Assembly: GCA_938040325.1 (NCBI GenBank)
Contig: CALHXW010000018.1
Location: forward strand, 1,540-65,539
DNA from: an uncultured bacterium
GTDB taxonomy: Bacteria; Myxococcota_A; UBA9042; PHBI01
Direction: 5' to 3'
Length of the DNA: 64,000 nucleotides
Part shown: in pieces, positions 49,440 through 50,543 of the stretch
Position numbering within the stretch: the stretch's first letter is position 1
Layout: every line of letters starts with the position of its first letter
Program-made: the position numbers and the translations under genes
Notes under the pieces: generated by a model
What the model was told of the DNA's origin: nothing
What the model saw: the letters and a program-made list of their open reading frames with translations, nothing else
Database searches by the model: none

Positions 49440-50543
49440 ATGATCGCTCAGCAACACCGCGAGCTCGATACCCGTCTGGACGCAACGTTCGACCGTCTGG
49501 GCCTCATCGGCTCGACGCTTCGAACCGAGCTACGCCATGACCTCAAGGCGAAGCTGCTCCTACGCGCCGGCGCTGACCCCGTAACCGTCGTCGGTCAGGG
49601 CGGCGTGGGCAAGCACAAGGTTGCCGAGGTTGTGCACGCGGTGGCGAGCGACGTTCTCGGCCGCCAAGGCGAGATGACCCGCTTGGACTGCGGGACCGTC
49701 GACCCGAGCGCAGACCCCGAGCAGCTCCTGACAGCACTCAACGAAGCATGCGGCGGCACGCTGCTCTTGGACCGTTTCGGCACGCTTGACGATGCAGGCC
49801 AAAAGCGAGCCGCTCAGATCATGCGCGAGCATGAGGGTGACACCTTGGTCGTAGCGGTCGCGGAGAAGCCCGCCAAGACGAGCTCAGCAACGATTCGCGT
49901 GAAAGGACTCCACGACCGACAAGAAGACGTCTGGGAGCTCATCGACCACTTCTTCAACGCGTGCGTTGAAGACCACGACCTCACAGCGGCGCTTGAAGGC
50001 TGCCGCGGCTTCTCGCGACAGGCCAAGAGCGACATCGCCGAGGTTGTCCGCGAGACGAACCTGTCGAGTGTTCGGACCCTCGACGACATCGTTCGCGACG
50101 TGCTCTTTGAAGCACTCGCGGCAGGTCCCATGCCTCTTAAGCTTACAAGCGACCACGTTCGCCCGTACCTCGAGGCGAAGTTCGGGCAGACACCGGAAGC
50201 GCGCTTGGACCGTGAGGTCGCGTTGCTCACGAGCCAGCTCGCCGACACGATCGAGTCGTCTCTGCTCGAGCGACTCTCGGAGCTTCATGGCGTTCCGCAG
50301 GACGTCTTGGTGCGTCAGGCCGAGGTCGTGCGCGACGTGATCGACTCGATCGAAGACGTCCCGCGAAGCTACCGCAACATCATGACGCGTGCTGAGGACG
50401 TCCAGCGCGCAGCCATCTGGCTGGTTAGTGGCGCCGACACCCAAGCGTCGTTCCGTCGGTTCTTCGGCGACGAGGGCTTTATGCGCCCGACGAAGAGCGT
50501 CGCGTGGGCCTTCTACAACCGCGTCTTTAAACGGGACATGTAG
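49440..50543 (+). CDS. Stand-alone sigma54-activator-type AAA+ core, degenerate (no GAFTGA, altered Walker B)
   Basis: Aligns to the NtrC central domain: LIGS...VTVVGQGGVGKHKVAEVVHA (Walker A, GESGTGKE-like); LDCGTV (cf. VNCAAI); GGTLLLDRFGTLDDAGQKRAAQIMRE (cf. [26 protein letters not shown], DE changed to DR); LHDRQEDVWELIDHFF (cf. LRERREDIPLLAEHFL). No receiver/GAF domain. No GAFTGA loop. No clear Fis-type HTH. Confidence 0.6.
   Translation: MIAQQHRELDTRLDATFDRLGLIGSTLRTELRHDLKAKLLLRAGADPVTVVGQGGVGKHKVAEVVHAVASDVLGRQGEMTRLDCGTVDPSADPEQLLTALNEACGGTLLLDRFGTLDDAGQKRAAQIMREHEGDTLVVAVAEKPAKTSSATIRVKGLHDRQEDVWELIDHFFNACVEDHDLTAALEGCRGFSRQAKSDIAEVVRETNLSSVRTLDDIVRDVLFEALAAGPMPLKLTSDHVRPYLEAKFGQTPEARLDREVALLTSQLADTIESSLLERLSELHGVPQDVLVRQAEVVRDVIDSIEDVPRSYRNIMTRAEDVQRAAIWLVSGADTQASFRRFFGDEGFMRPTKSVAWAFYNRVFKRDM

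What the first reader, a model, noticed from the sequence alone, without database searches (positions are those of the whole stretch)
49440..50543. Stand-alone, probably catalytically altered sigma54-activator core domain
The protein aligns along its length to the NtrC central AAA+ domain (Walker A GQGGVGK, sensor blocks, LHDRQEDV box). It lacks the GAFTGA sigma54-contact loop. Its Walker B is D-R instead of D-E. It has no receiver, GAF or clear Fis-type HTH domain. Such a protein cannot act as a conventional enhancer-binding protein. It could be an adaptor or regulator for the adjacent wHTH protein, or a repurposed AAA+ module.
Basis: seen in the sequence. Interest (0 to 1): 0.5.

Follow-up and report, generated by a model that had tools for sequence, protein, structure and literature searches.

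The report
Degenerate sigma54-activator paired with wHTH partner
This gene encodes a relative of the ATP-driven activators of sigma-54 RNA polymerase that has lost every part needed for that job, yet it is strictly conserved in uncultured Myxococcota, always next to a winged-helix partner and a small surface protein, so it most likely works as a repurposed regulator that does not depend on sigma-54.

Summary
ORF 49440-50543 (+, 367 aa) has a bEBP-type AAA+ fold: PDB profile hits ZraR 1.4e-9 and VpsR 4.3e-9, and Foldseek hits NtrC1, NtrX and PspF at about 1e-8 to 1e-9. It lacks the GAFTGA L1 loop, the L2 insertion and the arginine-finger segment. None of 87 orthologs has the Walker B glutamate (R62, G21, H2, D1, S1), and 30 of 87 have Arg at the Walker A lysine.

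It is not a stand-alone core. Residues 284-367 form a basic helical domain that holds most of the family's invariant residues. This domain has only 38 relatives among 1.84 billion representative proteins and shows no detectable likeness to the Fis-type HTH.

A sister clade (30-32% identity) keeps intact GAFTGA, DE and R-fingers with the same N- and C-termini, so this clade is a degenerate derivative.

In all ortholog loci the gene is followed at once by an acidic wHTH partner, and a small MYXO-CTERM-like exported protein follows wherever that was examined. One lineage fuses the AAA+ protein and the partner. A GTTC-N8-GAAC palindrome lies upstream of the AAA+ gene in both clades.

Best reading: a non-hydrolysing pseudo-bEBP that, with its partner, regulates its own operon independently of sigma-54. 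DNA binding, complex formation and targets are inferred, not shown. It is a new variant of the known "atypical EBP" kind, of moderate interest.

The parts
49355..49370 (.). Operator-like palindrome GTTCTTACATACGAAA, one mismatch to GTTC-N8-GAAC, in the 92-nt gap upstream of the AAA+ gene
   Evidence: An exact GTTC-N8-GAAC lies 85-140 nt upstream of the AAA+ start in 12 of 18 distinct ortholog loci. It is usually the only exact copy in about 20 kb. It is also present, once or twice, upstream of the intact sister-clade genes. GTTC and GAA are invariant in the alignment of upstream regions.
49392..49419 (+). Putative sigma70-type promoter: -35-like TTGCCT (49392-49397), 16-nt spacer, -10-like TACTTA (49414-49419)
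   Evidence: Inferred from conservation across loci of a TTG(T/C)nn hexamer, a 17-18 nt spacer and a TAnnnT hexamer downstream of the palindrome. The consensus scan does not call a promoter here. No sigma54 -24/-12 element is present.
49429..49433 (+). Shine-Dalgarno AGGAG, 6 nt upstream of the ATG
   Evidence: Read directly from the sequence.
49440..50543 (+). Pseudo-bEBP gene (367 aa): N-terminal helices, degenerate bEBP-type AAA+ domain (aa ~41-248), linker helix (aa 252-283), C-terminal domain
   Evidence: ORF listing. 93 homologs at 46-60% identity, all in Myxococcota MAGs. AF2 model with pLDDT 87.9 and a five-stranded AAA+ core plus lid. Foldseek and PDB profile hits to NtrC1, ZraR, VpsR, NtrX and PspF.
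49593..49616 (+). Walker A-like P-loop GQGGVGKH (aa 52-59)
   Evidence: G52, G55 and G57 are invariant in 87 of 87 orthologs. Position 58 is K in 57 and R in 30. Position 59 is H in 68.
49752..49778 (+). Degenerate Walker B GGTLLLDRF (aa 105-113)
   Evidence: The acidic position is D in 46 and E in 35 orthologs. The catalytic-Glu position is R in 62, G in 21, and never E, across 87 orthologs. The sister clade has GTLVLDE.
49908..49940 (+). LHDRQEDVWEL box (aa 157-167), equivalent to the bEBP 'PLReR.eDI' start of the lid subdomain
   Evidence: H158, R160 and D163 are invariant in 87 of 87 orthologs. The box aligns to the 'l.eR.eDI' segment of ZraR, VpsR and NtrC1.
50289..50540 (+). Family-specific C-terminal helical domain (aa 284-367) with the invariant motif W-L-x-S-x-A-x-x-Q-x-x-F-R-x-x-F-G-x6-P-x-K-S-x-A; its last 60 aa are strongly basic
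50566..51279 (+). Conserved partner gene (237 aa from GTG 50566; 232 aa from GTG 50581 in the public record): acidic N-terminal winged-helix domain plus a C-terminal domain of about 150 aa and unknown fold
   Evidence: A homolog follows the AAA+ gene directly in every ortholog locus that reaches past it. The same holds in the intact sister clade (hhalign 97%) and in the P0113 clade. The N-terminal domain matches the ArsR-family regulator NmtR at E=0.0016. Weak wHTH Pfam hits occur in 9 of 13 members. Public sources name homologs MarR-, Lrp- or BirA-like.
51287..51805 (+). Third operon gene: small exported acidic protein with a signal peptide, mature N-terminus AGIIVTVG, and a C-terminal GC + transmembrane helix + Arg-rich (MYXO-CTERM-like) sorting signal
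   Evidence: The translation and its counterparts in ten other loci examined share the signal peptide, the G(G)(I/V)(I/V)xxG motif and the Cys-TM-RRR tail. These loci cover both clades and the fusion locus. The only NCBIfam hit is weak: MXAN_0125 MYXO-CTERM family at E=0.074. The tripartite signal is as defined in PMC11980579.

Best explanation
The gene encodes a 'pseudo-bEBP'. It descends from a sensor-less sigma54 activator and keeps the AAA+ fold and the P-loop glycines. It has lost, by deletion or substitution, the sigma54-contact loops L1 (GAFTGA) and L2, the sensor I/arginine-finger segment and the Walker B glutamate. It therefore cannot hydrolyse ATP in the bEBP manner or remodel sigma54-RNA polymerase. 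This part is shown.

What selection has kept most tightly is a basic C-terminal helical domain specific to the family. The gene is the first of a three-gene operon: pseudo-bEBP, acidic wHTH partner, small MYXO-CTERM-like surface protein. The operon's promoter region carries a conserved GTTC-N8-GAAC palindrome. This part is also shown.

Inferred mechanism: the AAA+ body serves as an oligomerisation and partner-docking scaffold, and possibly as a nucleotide-binding switch that does not hydrolyse. It forms a complex with the partner. The complex sits on the palindrome, most probably through the basic C-terminal domain rather than the acidic wHTH. There it controls a sigma70-type promoter of its own operon, and so the level of the surface protein, independently of sigma54. 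This resembles the known atypical EBPs (TyrR, NtrX, VpsR, Rhodobacter and Caulobacter NtrC).
For: AAA+/bEBP homology.

Degeneracy at family level: Glu at the Walker B catalytic position in 0 of 87; Arg for the Walker A lysine in 30 of 87; L1, L2 and R-finger segments deleted relative to sister sequences.

Descent from a real bEBP: the sister clade shares the N- and C-termini and keeps GxTGxGKE, FGYKRGAFTGA, GTLVLDE, EREYRxxG and FRRDLLDR. It hits PF00158 at 7.7e-41. Intermediate forms are P0119, P0120 and P0110.

Purifying selection: 93 homologs at 46-60% identity.

Partnership: the partner gene is adjacent in all ortholog loci, with overlapping or abutting stop and start codons in many. The pair also occurs in the intact clade and in the P0113 clade within a different genomic context. 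A natural fusion protein, P0126, was seen in two assemblies. Its N-terminal half matches the AAA+ family at hhalign 98.6%, and its C-terminal half matches the partner family at 59.9% (E=8.8e-5).

Operator: the palindrome is enriched more than 100-fold at -85 to -140 upstream of the AAA+ start and is conserved across both clades. It abuts a TTGnnn hexamer.

DNA reader: the C-terminal domain is invariant across clades, as the palindrome is. Its last 60 aa have net charge +5 and pI 10.8. The partner's wHTH has net charge -4 and pI 4.7, and its putative recognition helix is variable and acidic. Short proteins consisting of little more than the C-terminal domain exist, which suggests an autonomous module.

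No sigma54 promoter signal: 69 sites found against 67.5 expected.

Precedent for GAFTGA-less EBPs acting at sigma70 promoters without hydrolysis: PMC6158489 and bioRxiv 10.1101/2023.06.06.543975.
Against: Nothing shows DNA binding, complex formation or transcriptional activity.

The window's own palindrome has one mismatch, and the consensus scan calls no sigma70 promoter in that gap. About a third of ortholog loci have no exact palindrome.

The palindrome could be the site of some other regulator.

The palindrome is not found at the promoters of the neighbouring DUF2169/kinase cluster. The strong synteny with that cluster is therefore not explained by this model.

One related clade (P0101, L033) has no adjacent partner.

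The partner half of the fusion matches only moderately (59.9%).
Confidence: 0.5

Rival explanations
1. The partner's winged helix is the DNA-binding subunit. The AAA+ protein binds no DNA and acts as its regulatory or scaffolding subunit, for example as a nucleotide- or signal-dependent co-regulator or anti-regulator. This would parallel PspA/PspF or NifL/NifA with the roles redistributed. It is essentially the first reader's 'adaptor for the wHTH protein'.
For: The partner's N-terminal domain is the only part of the pair with recognisable similarity to DNA-binding domains. It matches NmtR (ArsR family) at E=0.0016, followed by ArsR, Rrf2 and MarR proteins. HVO_A0114, MarR_2 and HTH_20 hits occur in 7-9 of 13 members. 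ArsR- and MarR-type dimers typically bind palindromes that overlap promoters (general knowledge). The strict adjacency and the fusion fit a two-subunit regulator. The C-terminal domain of the AAA+ protein has no DNA-binding homolog.
Against: The wHTH domain is acidic (net -4, pI 4.7), and its predicted recognition helix is variable and rich in Asp and Glu. It is only 19-23% identical between clades that share the same palindrome. This model does not explain why a basic 60-residue tail is the most invariant part of the AAA+ protein in every clade.
Confidence: 0.27
2. The protein has no role in transcription. It is a repurposed AAA+ adaptor or chaperone that serves the neighbouring PAAR/DUF2169-kinase-ATP-grasp/methyltransferase cluster, or the export and processing of the MYXO-CTERM protein.
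For: In the degenerate clade the three-gene operon always lies just downstream of a DUF2169-kinase cluster. That cluster carries either an ATP-grasp and methyltransferase protein or an ABC/ABC2-CPBP/Ser-Thr-kinase set. CPBP proteases process MYXO-CTERM signals (PMC11980579). DUF2169 and PAAR are accessory parts of type VI secretion (titles and abstracts listed).
Against: The operon also occurs without that cluster, in the sister clade and in the P0113 clade. It has its own promoter region with a palindrome. The ancestor is a transcription activator and the partner carries a wHTH. The pore loops and ATPase machinery that a mechanical AAA+ chaperone would need are exactly what has been lost.
Confidence: 0.12
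3. It is an ordinary sigma54-dependent activator whose motifs were mis-registered, or a decaying pseudogene.
For: The single-sequence PF00158 score just passes the gathering cut-off (21.1 against 20.2 bits).
Against: Profile and structure alignments place the deletions exactly at L1, L2 and the R-finger segment. None of 87 orthologs has the catalytic Glu. No excess of sigma54 promoter-like sites is found. Against decay, there are 93 homologs, mostly full length, at 46-60% identity with many invariant residues and a conserved operon.
Confidence: 0.02

Closest known systems
Atypical (GAFTGA-less) enhancer-binding proteins: V. cholerae VpsR, Brucella/Caulobacter NtrX, R. capsulatus and Caulobacter NtrC, E. 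coli TyrR, P. putida PhhR, R. capsulatus HupR, M. xanthus HsfA
   Same: They have a bEBP-type AAA+ domain without the GAFTGA sigma54-contact loop and often with a non-consensus Walker B. They act at sigma70 promoters and in several cases need no ATP hydrolysis (PMC6158489 and bioRxiv 10.1101/2023.06.06.543975). VpsR and NtrX are among the best sequence and fold matches.
   Different: The known examples I can place keep an N-terminal sensory domain (receiver, or ACT/PAS in TyrR and PhhR) and a C-terminal HTH. This rests for the EBP domain plan and otherwise on my own knowledge. This protein has no sensory domain and no detectable Fis-type HTH; it has a novel basic C-terminal domain instead. It has also lost L2 and the R-finger segment, and it comes with an obligate co-encoded wHTH partner and a surface-protein gene.
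PspF-type sensor-less bEBPs controlled in trans (PspF/PspA, HrpRS/HrpV, NifA/NifL)
   Same: The architecture is an AAA+ domain plus a C-terminal domain with no N-terminal sensor, and a dedicated partner protein is encoded alongside. PspF is among the fold matches. The intact sister clade probably works this way (inference).
   Different: PspF is a working ATPase with GAFTGA and a Fis-type HTH. Its partner PspA has no wHTH (my own knowledge). Here the ATPase and sigma54 apparatus is gone and the partner carries a winged helix.
Sister clade of the same family (e.g. L021 9977-11176, L027, L028, P0112)
   Same: It shares the N-terminal segment and the C-terminal domain (40-46% identity over the last 84 aa). 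It also shares the partner gene, the MYXO-CTERM third gene and the GTTC-N8-GAAC palindrome.
   Different: The sister clade keeps Walker A GKE, GAFTGA, Walker B DE, the L2 insertion and the FRRDLLDR R-fingers, and hits PF00158 at 7.7e-41. It is not linked to the DUF2169/kinase cluster.
Fis (a stand-alone descendant of the NtrC DNA-binding domain)
   Same: By analogy only: short proteins of 96-152 aa consisting of little more than the C-terminal domain exist (L026 9896-10312, P0096-P0098, P0103, P0109, P0117). Fis likewise exists apart from NtrC.
   Different: No sequence or fold similarity to Fis was found.

Membership tests
Bacterial enhancer-binding proteins (sigma54 activators, Pfam PF00158) | AAA+ fold of the bEBP clade | tested here: met
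   The PDB profile search hits ZraR at 1.4e-9, VpsR at 4.3e-9 and NtrC1 at 1.7e-8. Foldseek gives NtrC1, NtrX, ZraR, VpsR and PspF as top hits with probability 1.0. The AF2 model has five strands plus a helical lid.
Bacterial enhancer-binding proteins (sigma54 activators, Pfam PF00158) | Pfam PF00158 match above the gathering score over the whole domain | tested here: inconclusive
   The score is 21.1 bits against a cut-off of 20.2, but the match covers only aa 46-88, which is model positions 23-62 of 168. The sister clade scores 140 bits.
Bacterial enhancer-binding proteins (sigma54 activators, Pfam PF00158) | GAFTGA motif in loop L1 (sigma54 contact) | tested here: not met
   About 15 residues are deleted between the 'DC' strand and GGTL. 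The motif is absent in all aligned orthologs. The sister clade has FGYKRGAFTGA.
Bacterial enhancer-binding proteins (sigma54 activators, Pfam PF00158) | Pre-sensor-I insertion (loop L2) | tested here: not met
   The sister-clade segment EREYRxxGxxxxxxxD is deleted in the target clade.
Bacterial enhancer-binding proteins (sigma54 activators, Pfam PF00158) | Walker B hhhhDE with a catalytic Glu | tested here: not met
   The window protein has LLLDR. Across 87 orthologs the Glu position is R in 62, G in 21, H in 2, D in 1 and S in 1.
Bacterial enhancer-binding proteins (sigma54 activators, Pfam PF00158) | Sensor I and trans-acting arginine fingers (FRxDLxxRL) | tested here: not met
   The sister-clade segment 'SSNxDLxxLxxxGxFRRDLLDR' is deleted in the target clade.
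Bacterial enhancer-binding proteins (sigma54 activators, Pfam PF00158) | Walker A GxxGxGK(E) | tested here: inconclusive
   The window protein has GQGGVGKH with the Lys present. In the family the three Gly are invariant, but the Lys is Arg in 30 of 87 orthologs and the next residue is His rather than Glu.
Bacterial enhancer-binding proteins (sigma54 activators, Pfam PF00158) | C-terminal Fis-type HTH (PF02954) | tested here: not met
Bacterial enhancer-binding proteins (sigma54 activators, Pfam PF00158) | Cognate sigma54 (-24/-12) promoter nearby | tested here: not met
   TGGCAC-N5-TTGC with up to 2 mismatches gives 69 sites against 67.5 expected, with none in the relevant intergenic gaps.
Atypical EBPs (TyrR, NtrX, VpsR, HupR, PhhR, HsfA, Rhodobacter/Caulobacter NtrC) | bEBP-type AAA+ domain lacking GAFTGA, often with a variant Walker B | tested here: met
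   The definition is taken from PMC6158489.
Atypical EBPs (TyrR, NtrX, VpsR, HupR, PhhR, HsfA, Rhodobacter/Caulobacter NtrC) | N-terminal sensory domain (receiver or ACT/PAS) | tested here: not met
   Only about 40 residues (two helices) precede the AAA+ core, and no Pfam or NCBIfam sensory domain is found.
Atypical EBPs (TyrR, NtrX, VpsR, HupR, PhhR, HsfA, Rhodobacter/Caulobacter NtrC) | Regulates sigma70-dependent promoters by binding DNA | not testable with these tools
   The evidence is indirect only. A conserved palindrome lies next to a TTGnnn-17/18-TAnnnT arrangement upstream of the operon. The consensus scan does not call a promoter in the window.
ArsR/MarR-type winged-helix regulators (for the partner, 50566-51279) | Winged helix-turn-helix domain detectable by sequence | tested here: inconclusive
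   The family profile hits NmtR at E=0.0016, then ArsR, Rrf2 and MarR proteins. HVO_A0114 and MarR_2 hit 9 of 13 members, with a best E of 7e-6, all below the gathering scores. The window member itself has only MarR_2 at E=0.1.
MYXO-CTERM surface proteins (for the third gene, 51287-51805) | Signal peptide plus a C-terminal Cys motif, transmembrane helix and Arg-rich tail | tested here: inconclusive
   All three parts are visible in the window protein (…LGCSGSSSTGGPLGLVALGLLLAALRIARRS…) and in ten counterparts. They match the definition in PMC11980579. The only model hit is NF041936 at E=0.074.

The most novel reading that the evidence does not exclude
The pseudo-bEBP, its wHTH partner and the small MYXO-CTERM protein form a previously undescribed regulatory module specific to Myxococcota. 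Within one small family it occurs in a working sigma54-activator form, in intermediate forms and in fully degenerate forms. In the degenerate form a bEBP has become a non-hydrolysing scaffold, and its conserved 84-residue C-terminal domain is a new kind of DNA-binding domain that reads GTTC-N8-GAAC. In the window's clade the module has been recruited to a PAAR/DUF2169-kinase-ATP-grasp/methyltransferase cluster of unknown function.
Probability: 0.4. Interest if true: 0.65.

Novelty: new variant of a known kind. Interest (0 to 1): 0.5.

Why it matters
GAFTGA-less 'atypical EBPs' are known, but only a handful have been studied, and how they act at non-sigma54 promoters is still unclear.

This family offers a natural series within one lineage: intact members, intermediates and fully degenerate members. 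All share the same C-terminal domain, and the operator is shared at least by the intact and degenerate clades. That makes the conversion from a sigma54-dependent ATPase to a hydrolysis-independent regulator directly comparable.

The family also points to three further things. One is a possibly new DNA-binding domain. Another is an obligate AAA+/winged-helix pairing that includes a natural fusion. The third is a link between a cytoplasmic regulator and a lipid-anchored surface protein in Myxococcota, which are known for surface-mediated social behaviour.

All members come from uncultured MAGs, so the practical impact is limited until one is expressed or a cultured host is found.

Tried and rejected

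2. Sigma54 promoter search in the window and in sister-clade loci. There was no enrichment. One weak site in L020 and one in L022 were not pursued.

3. Search for the GTTC-N8-GAAC palindrome at other promoters of the neighbouring cluster, in the window and in 13 loci. None was found in intergenic positions, so there is no operator evidence that the pair regulates the DUF2169/kinase cluster.

4. The palindrome upstream of the stand-alone C-terminal-domain paralog in L026 is absent.

5. The 664-aa upstream protein was checked as a possible VgrG. It has no Pfam, NCBIfam or PDB sequence hit.

6. PexR of M. xanthus (PMC12754779) turned out to be a canonical GAF-AAA+-HTH bEBP and is not related to this case.

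7. The divergent 256-aa gene in L033 was tested as a displaced partner and is not one.

8. The afdb50 fold library was not available.

9. The simple promoter scan did not call a sigma70 promoter upstream of the gene in the window.
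Full report
**1. The observation**

The ORF 49440..50543 (+) is real. It starts with ATG, encodes 367 aa, and has an AGGAG sequence 6 nt upstream of the start.

As a single sequence it only grazes the sigma54-activator models. PF00158 gives E=2.7e-4 over aa 46-88 and PF14532 gives E=2.6e-4. NCBIfam adds weak NtrC and PspF hits to the lid region at aa 151-277.

At family level the homology is secure. A profile of 28 orthologs finds ZraR at 1.4e-9, VpsR at 4.3e-9, NtrC1 at 1.7e-8, then NtrX, LuxO, PspF and FleQ in the PDB. An AF2 model with pLDDT 87.9 has a five-stranded AAA+ core plus a helical lid. It matches NtrC1, NtrX, ZraR, VpsR and PspF with Foldseek probability 1.0.

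The similarity ends near residue 248. It does not run 'along its length'.

**2. The protein is degenerate, and so is its whole family**

93 homologs at 46-60% identity, mostly 360-390 aa, exist only in Myxococcota metagenome-assembled genomes (MAGs) and metagenomes. Where a source names them at all, it is mostly as 'hypothetical protein'.

Among 87 full-length orthologs the three P-loop glycines are invariant. The Walker A lysine is Arg in 30. The position of the catalytic Walker B glutamate is R in 62, G in 21, H in 2, D in 1 and S in 1, and never E.

The C-terminal patterns used in the genome scan also retrieved a sister clade at 30-32% identity (L020-L023, L027, L028; also P0112). It shares the N-terminal segment and the C-terminal domain. 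It also keeps GxTGxGKE, FGY(K/R)RGAFTGA, GTLVLDE, the EREYRxxG insertion, the SSN sensor I and FRRDLLDR. It hits PF00158 at 7.7e-41.

Aligned against this clade, the window protein has three clean deletions. They remove loop L1 (GAFTGA), loop L2 (the pre-sensor-I insertion), and the sensor I/arginine-finger segment. Intermediates exist: P0119 has lost GAFTGA and reads H-E at Walker B, P0120 reads D-H, and P0110 reads D-D.

The window's clade is therefore a degenerate derivative of a genuine sigma54-activator lineage. A conventional bEBP mechanism is excluded.

**3. What is conserved instead**

Across all clades, apart from the P-loop glycines and G24, the invariant residues lie in the last 84 residues: R317, W327, Q335, F338, R339, F342, G343, P350, K352, S353 and A355.

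A profile of this domain finds only 38 cluster representatives among 1.84 billion proteins. The domain is always at the C-terminus of bEBP-like proteins of 360-436 aa, or in short proteins of 96-166 aa. One of the short ones is a complete 138-aa ORF in the same MAG as an ortholog (L026 9896-10312).

The last 60 residues have net charge +5 and pI 10.8, in a protein whose overall pI is 5.3. The domain sits where bEBPs carry their DNA-binding domain.

**4. Genomic context**

In every ortholog locus that extends past the gene, it is followed at once by a homolog of window 50566/50581-51279. Stop and start codons often overlap or abut.

The N-terminal ~80 residues of this partner weakly but consistently resemble ArsR- and MarR-type winged helices. 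The family profile hits NmtR at E=0.0016. HVO_A0114 and MarR_2 hit 9 of 13 members. Some public sources name homologs MarR, Lrp or BirA. The remaining ~150 residues match nothing.

The intact sister-clade bEBP is also followed, with a 4-nt overlap, by a partner homolog (hhalign 97%, E=1.2e-10). So is the separate degenerate P0113 clade, in an unrelated neighbourhood.

One lineage encodes a single 674-aa protein, P0126, seen in two assemblies. Residues 5-347 match the AAA+ family (98.6%) and residues 416-630 match the partner family (59.9%, E=8.8e-5). This is a Rosetta-stone argument for a physical complex, although the second match is only moderate.

A third gene follows in both clades and in the fusion locus. 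It encodes a small exported protein with a signal peptide, a mature N-terminus G(G)(I/V)(I/V)xxG, an acidic middle, and a Cys + transmembrane helix + Arg-rich tail (window 51287-51805). That tail matches the tripartite MYXO-CTERM signal described in PMC11980579.

One related clade (P0101, L033) lacks an adjacent partner but has a divergently transcribed MYXO-CTERM-like protein.

**5. A conserved cis element**

An exact GTTC-N8-GAAC palindrome lies 85-140 nt upstream of the AAA+ start in 12 of 18 distinct ortholog loci. It is usually the only exact copy in about 20 kb. One or two copies lie upstream of the sister-clade genes.

In most loci the palindrome abuts a TTG(T/C)nn hexamer, which is followed after 17-18 nt by TAnnnT. 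This layout fits a sigma70-type promoter with an adjacent or overlapping operator. No GG-N10-GC sigma54 element is present, and sigma54-like sites are not enriched in the window.

The window's copy (49355-49370, GTTCTTACATACGAAA) has one mismatch and lies 22 nt upstream of a TTGCCT-16-TACTTA arrangement. The simple consensus scan does not call a promoter there.

The palindrome is not found at the promoters of the upstream cluster. The only regulation it supports is that of the three-gene operon itself.

**6. The most likely mechanism**

Shown:
- The protein has a bEBP fold without the parts needed for hydrolysis or for sigma54 contact.
- The family is strongly conserved.
- The pairing with the partner predates the degeneration.
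- A natural fusion of the two proteins exists.
- An operator-like palindrome is conserved across both clades.

Inferred:
- The protein and its partner form a complex.
- The complex occupies the palindrome and controls a sigma54-independent promoter of its own operon, and so the level of the surface protein.
- The AAA+ body acts as an oligomerisation and docking scaffold, and perhaps as a nucleotide-binding switch. The P-loop glycines and a sensor-II-like Arg (77 of 87) are kept, but the Lys-to-Arg changes make even binding uncertain.

Both the domain and the palindrome are invariant across clades, and the domain is basic. The partner's winged helix is acidic (net -4), has a variable recognition helix, and is only 19-23% identical between clades.

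The main rival assigns DNA binding to the partner and a purely regulatory role to the AAA+ protein. I give it about 0.27. A non-transcriptional adaptor role for the neighbouring cluster gets about 0.12. An ordinary bEBP or a pseudogene is effectively excluded.

**7. Comparison with known systems**

It works most like the 'atypical EBPs' that lack GAFTGA and act at sigma70 promoters. These include VpsR, NtrX, TyrR, PhhR, HupR, HsfA, and the Rhodobacter and Caulobacter NtrC proteins (PMC6158489; bioRxiv 10.1101/2023.06.06.543975). VpsR and NtrX are among its best matches.

It is not a member in the usual sense, for four reasons:
- It has no sensory domain.
- It has no detectable Fis-type HTH.
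- Its core is far more eroded, with L2 and the R-fingers also lost.
- It has an obligate wHTH partner.

The sensor-less architecture with a trans-acting partner recalls PspF/PspA. PspF, however, is a working ATPase.

**8. Novelty and verdict**

I found no paper describing this family, its C-terminal domain or the three-gene module. The searches were limited to the held library.

It is a new variant of a known kind. The loss of sigma54 coupling in a bEBP is not surprising in itself. The intact-to-degenerate series, the orphan C-terminal domain, the fusion-supported AAA+/wHTH pairing and the conserved operator make it a tractable and moderately interesting case. Interest 0.5.

Noticed in passing
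window 38389-49347 (+): A conserved gene cluster of unknown function lies directly upstream. It comprises a 664-aa protein with no database match, a 768-aa DUF2169 protein (E=5e-49), a 374-aa unknown, a 914-aa protein, a 198-aa kinase and a 471-aa ATP-grasp-like protein. The 914-aa protein has a C-terminal SAM-methyltransferase domain and a weak PADLOC mad2 hit. The kinase resembles the kinase part of anti-phage dCTP deaminases (PADLOC dCTPase 1e-21; NCBIfam PRK08356 1e-17). The ATP-grasp-like protein has a Pre-ATP-grasp hit and a weak PGM1_C hit. In related loci a PAAR gene sits before the DUF2169 gene. The cluster is syntenic with the operon in all ortholog loci that have enough upstream sequence.
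   Followed up: partly
L001 5342-9821; L004 5543-9857; L005 79-2088: In an alternative version of the locus, the methyltransferase (and in some loci the ATP-grasp) gene is replaced. In their place are an ABC ATPase, a fused ABC2-permease/CPBP (Rce1-like) protease and a Ser/Thr kinase, directly upstream of the AAA+ gene. CPBP proteases include myxosortase, which cleaves MYXO-CTERM signals (PMC11980579). This protease may therefore process the third-gene product.
   Followed up: no
window 34618-38403 (-): A 1261-aa Ser/Thr protein kinase with AAA_16 and TPR domains is transcribed divergently from the 664-aa gene. The same arrangement occurs in L003 and L004.
   Followed up: no
L026 9896-10312 (+); also P0096-P0098, P0103, P0109, P0117: Short proteins of 96-152 aa consist of little more than the family's C-terminal domain (64% identity over the matched 92 residues in L026). 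They occur in the same MAG as a full-length ortholog, much as Fis exists apart from NtrC. No GTTC-N8-GAAC palindrome lies upstream of the L026 copy.
   Followed up: partly
L030 1664-3688 and L031 27-2051: A 674-aa natural fusion of a degenerate AAA+ family member with a partner-like C-terminal half. It is followed by a 209-aa MYXO-CTERM-like protein.
   Followed up: yes
L003 ~9945-9965, L016 ~9865-9885, L013, L007, L006, L025 (between the -10-like element and the AAA+ start): A second conserved stretch, roughly GGGCA(N)AGT(N)CGCC, lies in the presumed 5' leader of several ortholog loci. Its spacing does not fit a sigma54 -24/-12 element. It could be another binding site or a leader RNA feature.
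   Followed up: no
L033 3880-3935: Upstream of the partner-less P0101-clade gene, the same half-sites appear in a different arrangement. GGAACGATCGTTCC is a perfect 14-bp palindrome of the form GAAC-N4-GTTC, and further GTTCC repeats follow.
   Followed up: no
window 50389-50565: The mechanical ORF list extends the partner ORF 177 nt upstream, so that it overlaps the end of the AAA+ gene. Homolog alignment and the public record (P0133, 232 aa) place the real start at GTG 50566 or 50581. Likewise, the third gene's real start is ATG 51287, not 51203.
   Followed up: yes
window 14164-18225 (+), 19629-27002 (-), 52212-53870 (-), 53929-55287 (+): Other large genes in the window are a 1353-aa SNF2-family helicase, a 2457-aa FG-GAP/TSP3-repeat protein, an HtrA-type protease with two PDZ domains, and a secreted metallophosphoesterase with a Thr/Pro/Asp-rich N-terminal region. 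Housekeeping genes are also present (succinyl-CoA ligase beta, glycine-cleavage T protein, RlmN). This indicates an ordinary chromosomal region of about 64% GC.
   Followed up: no
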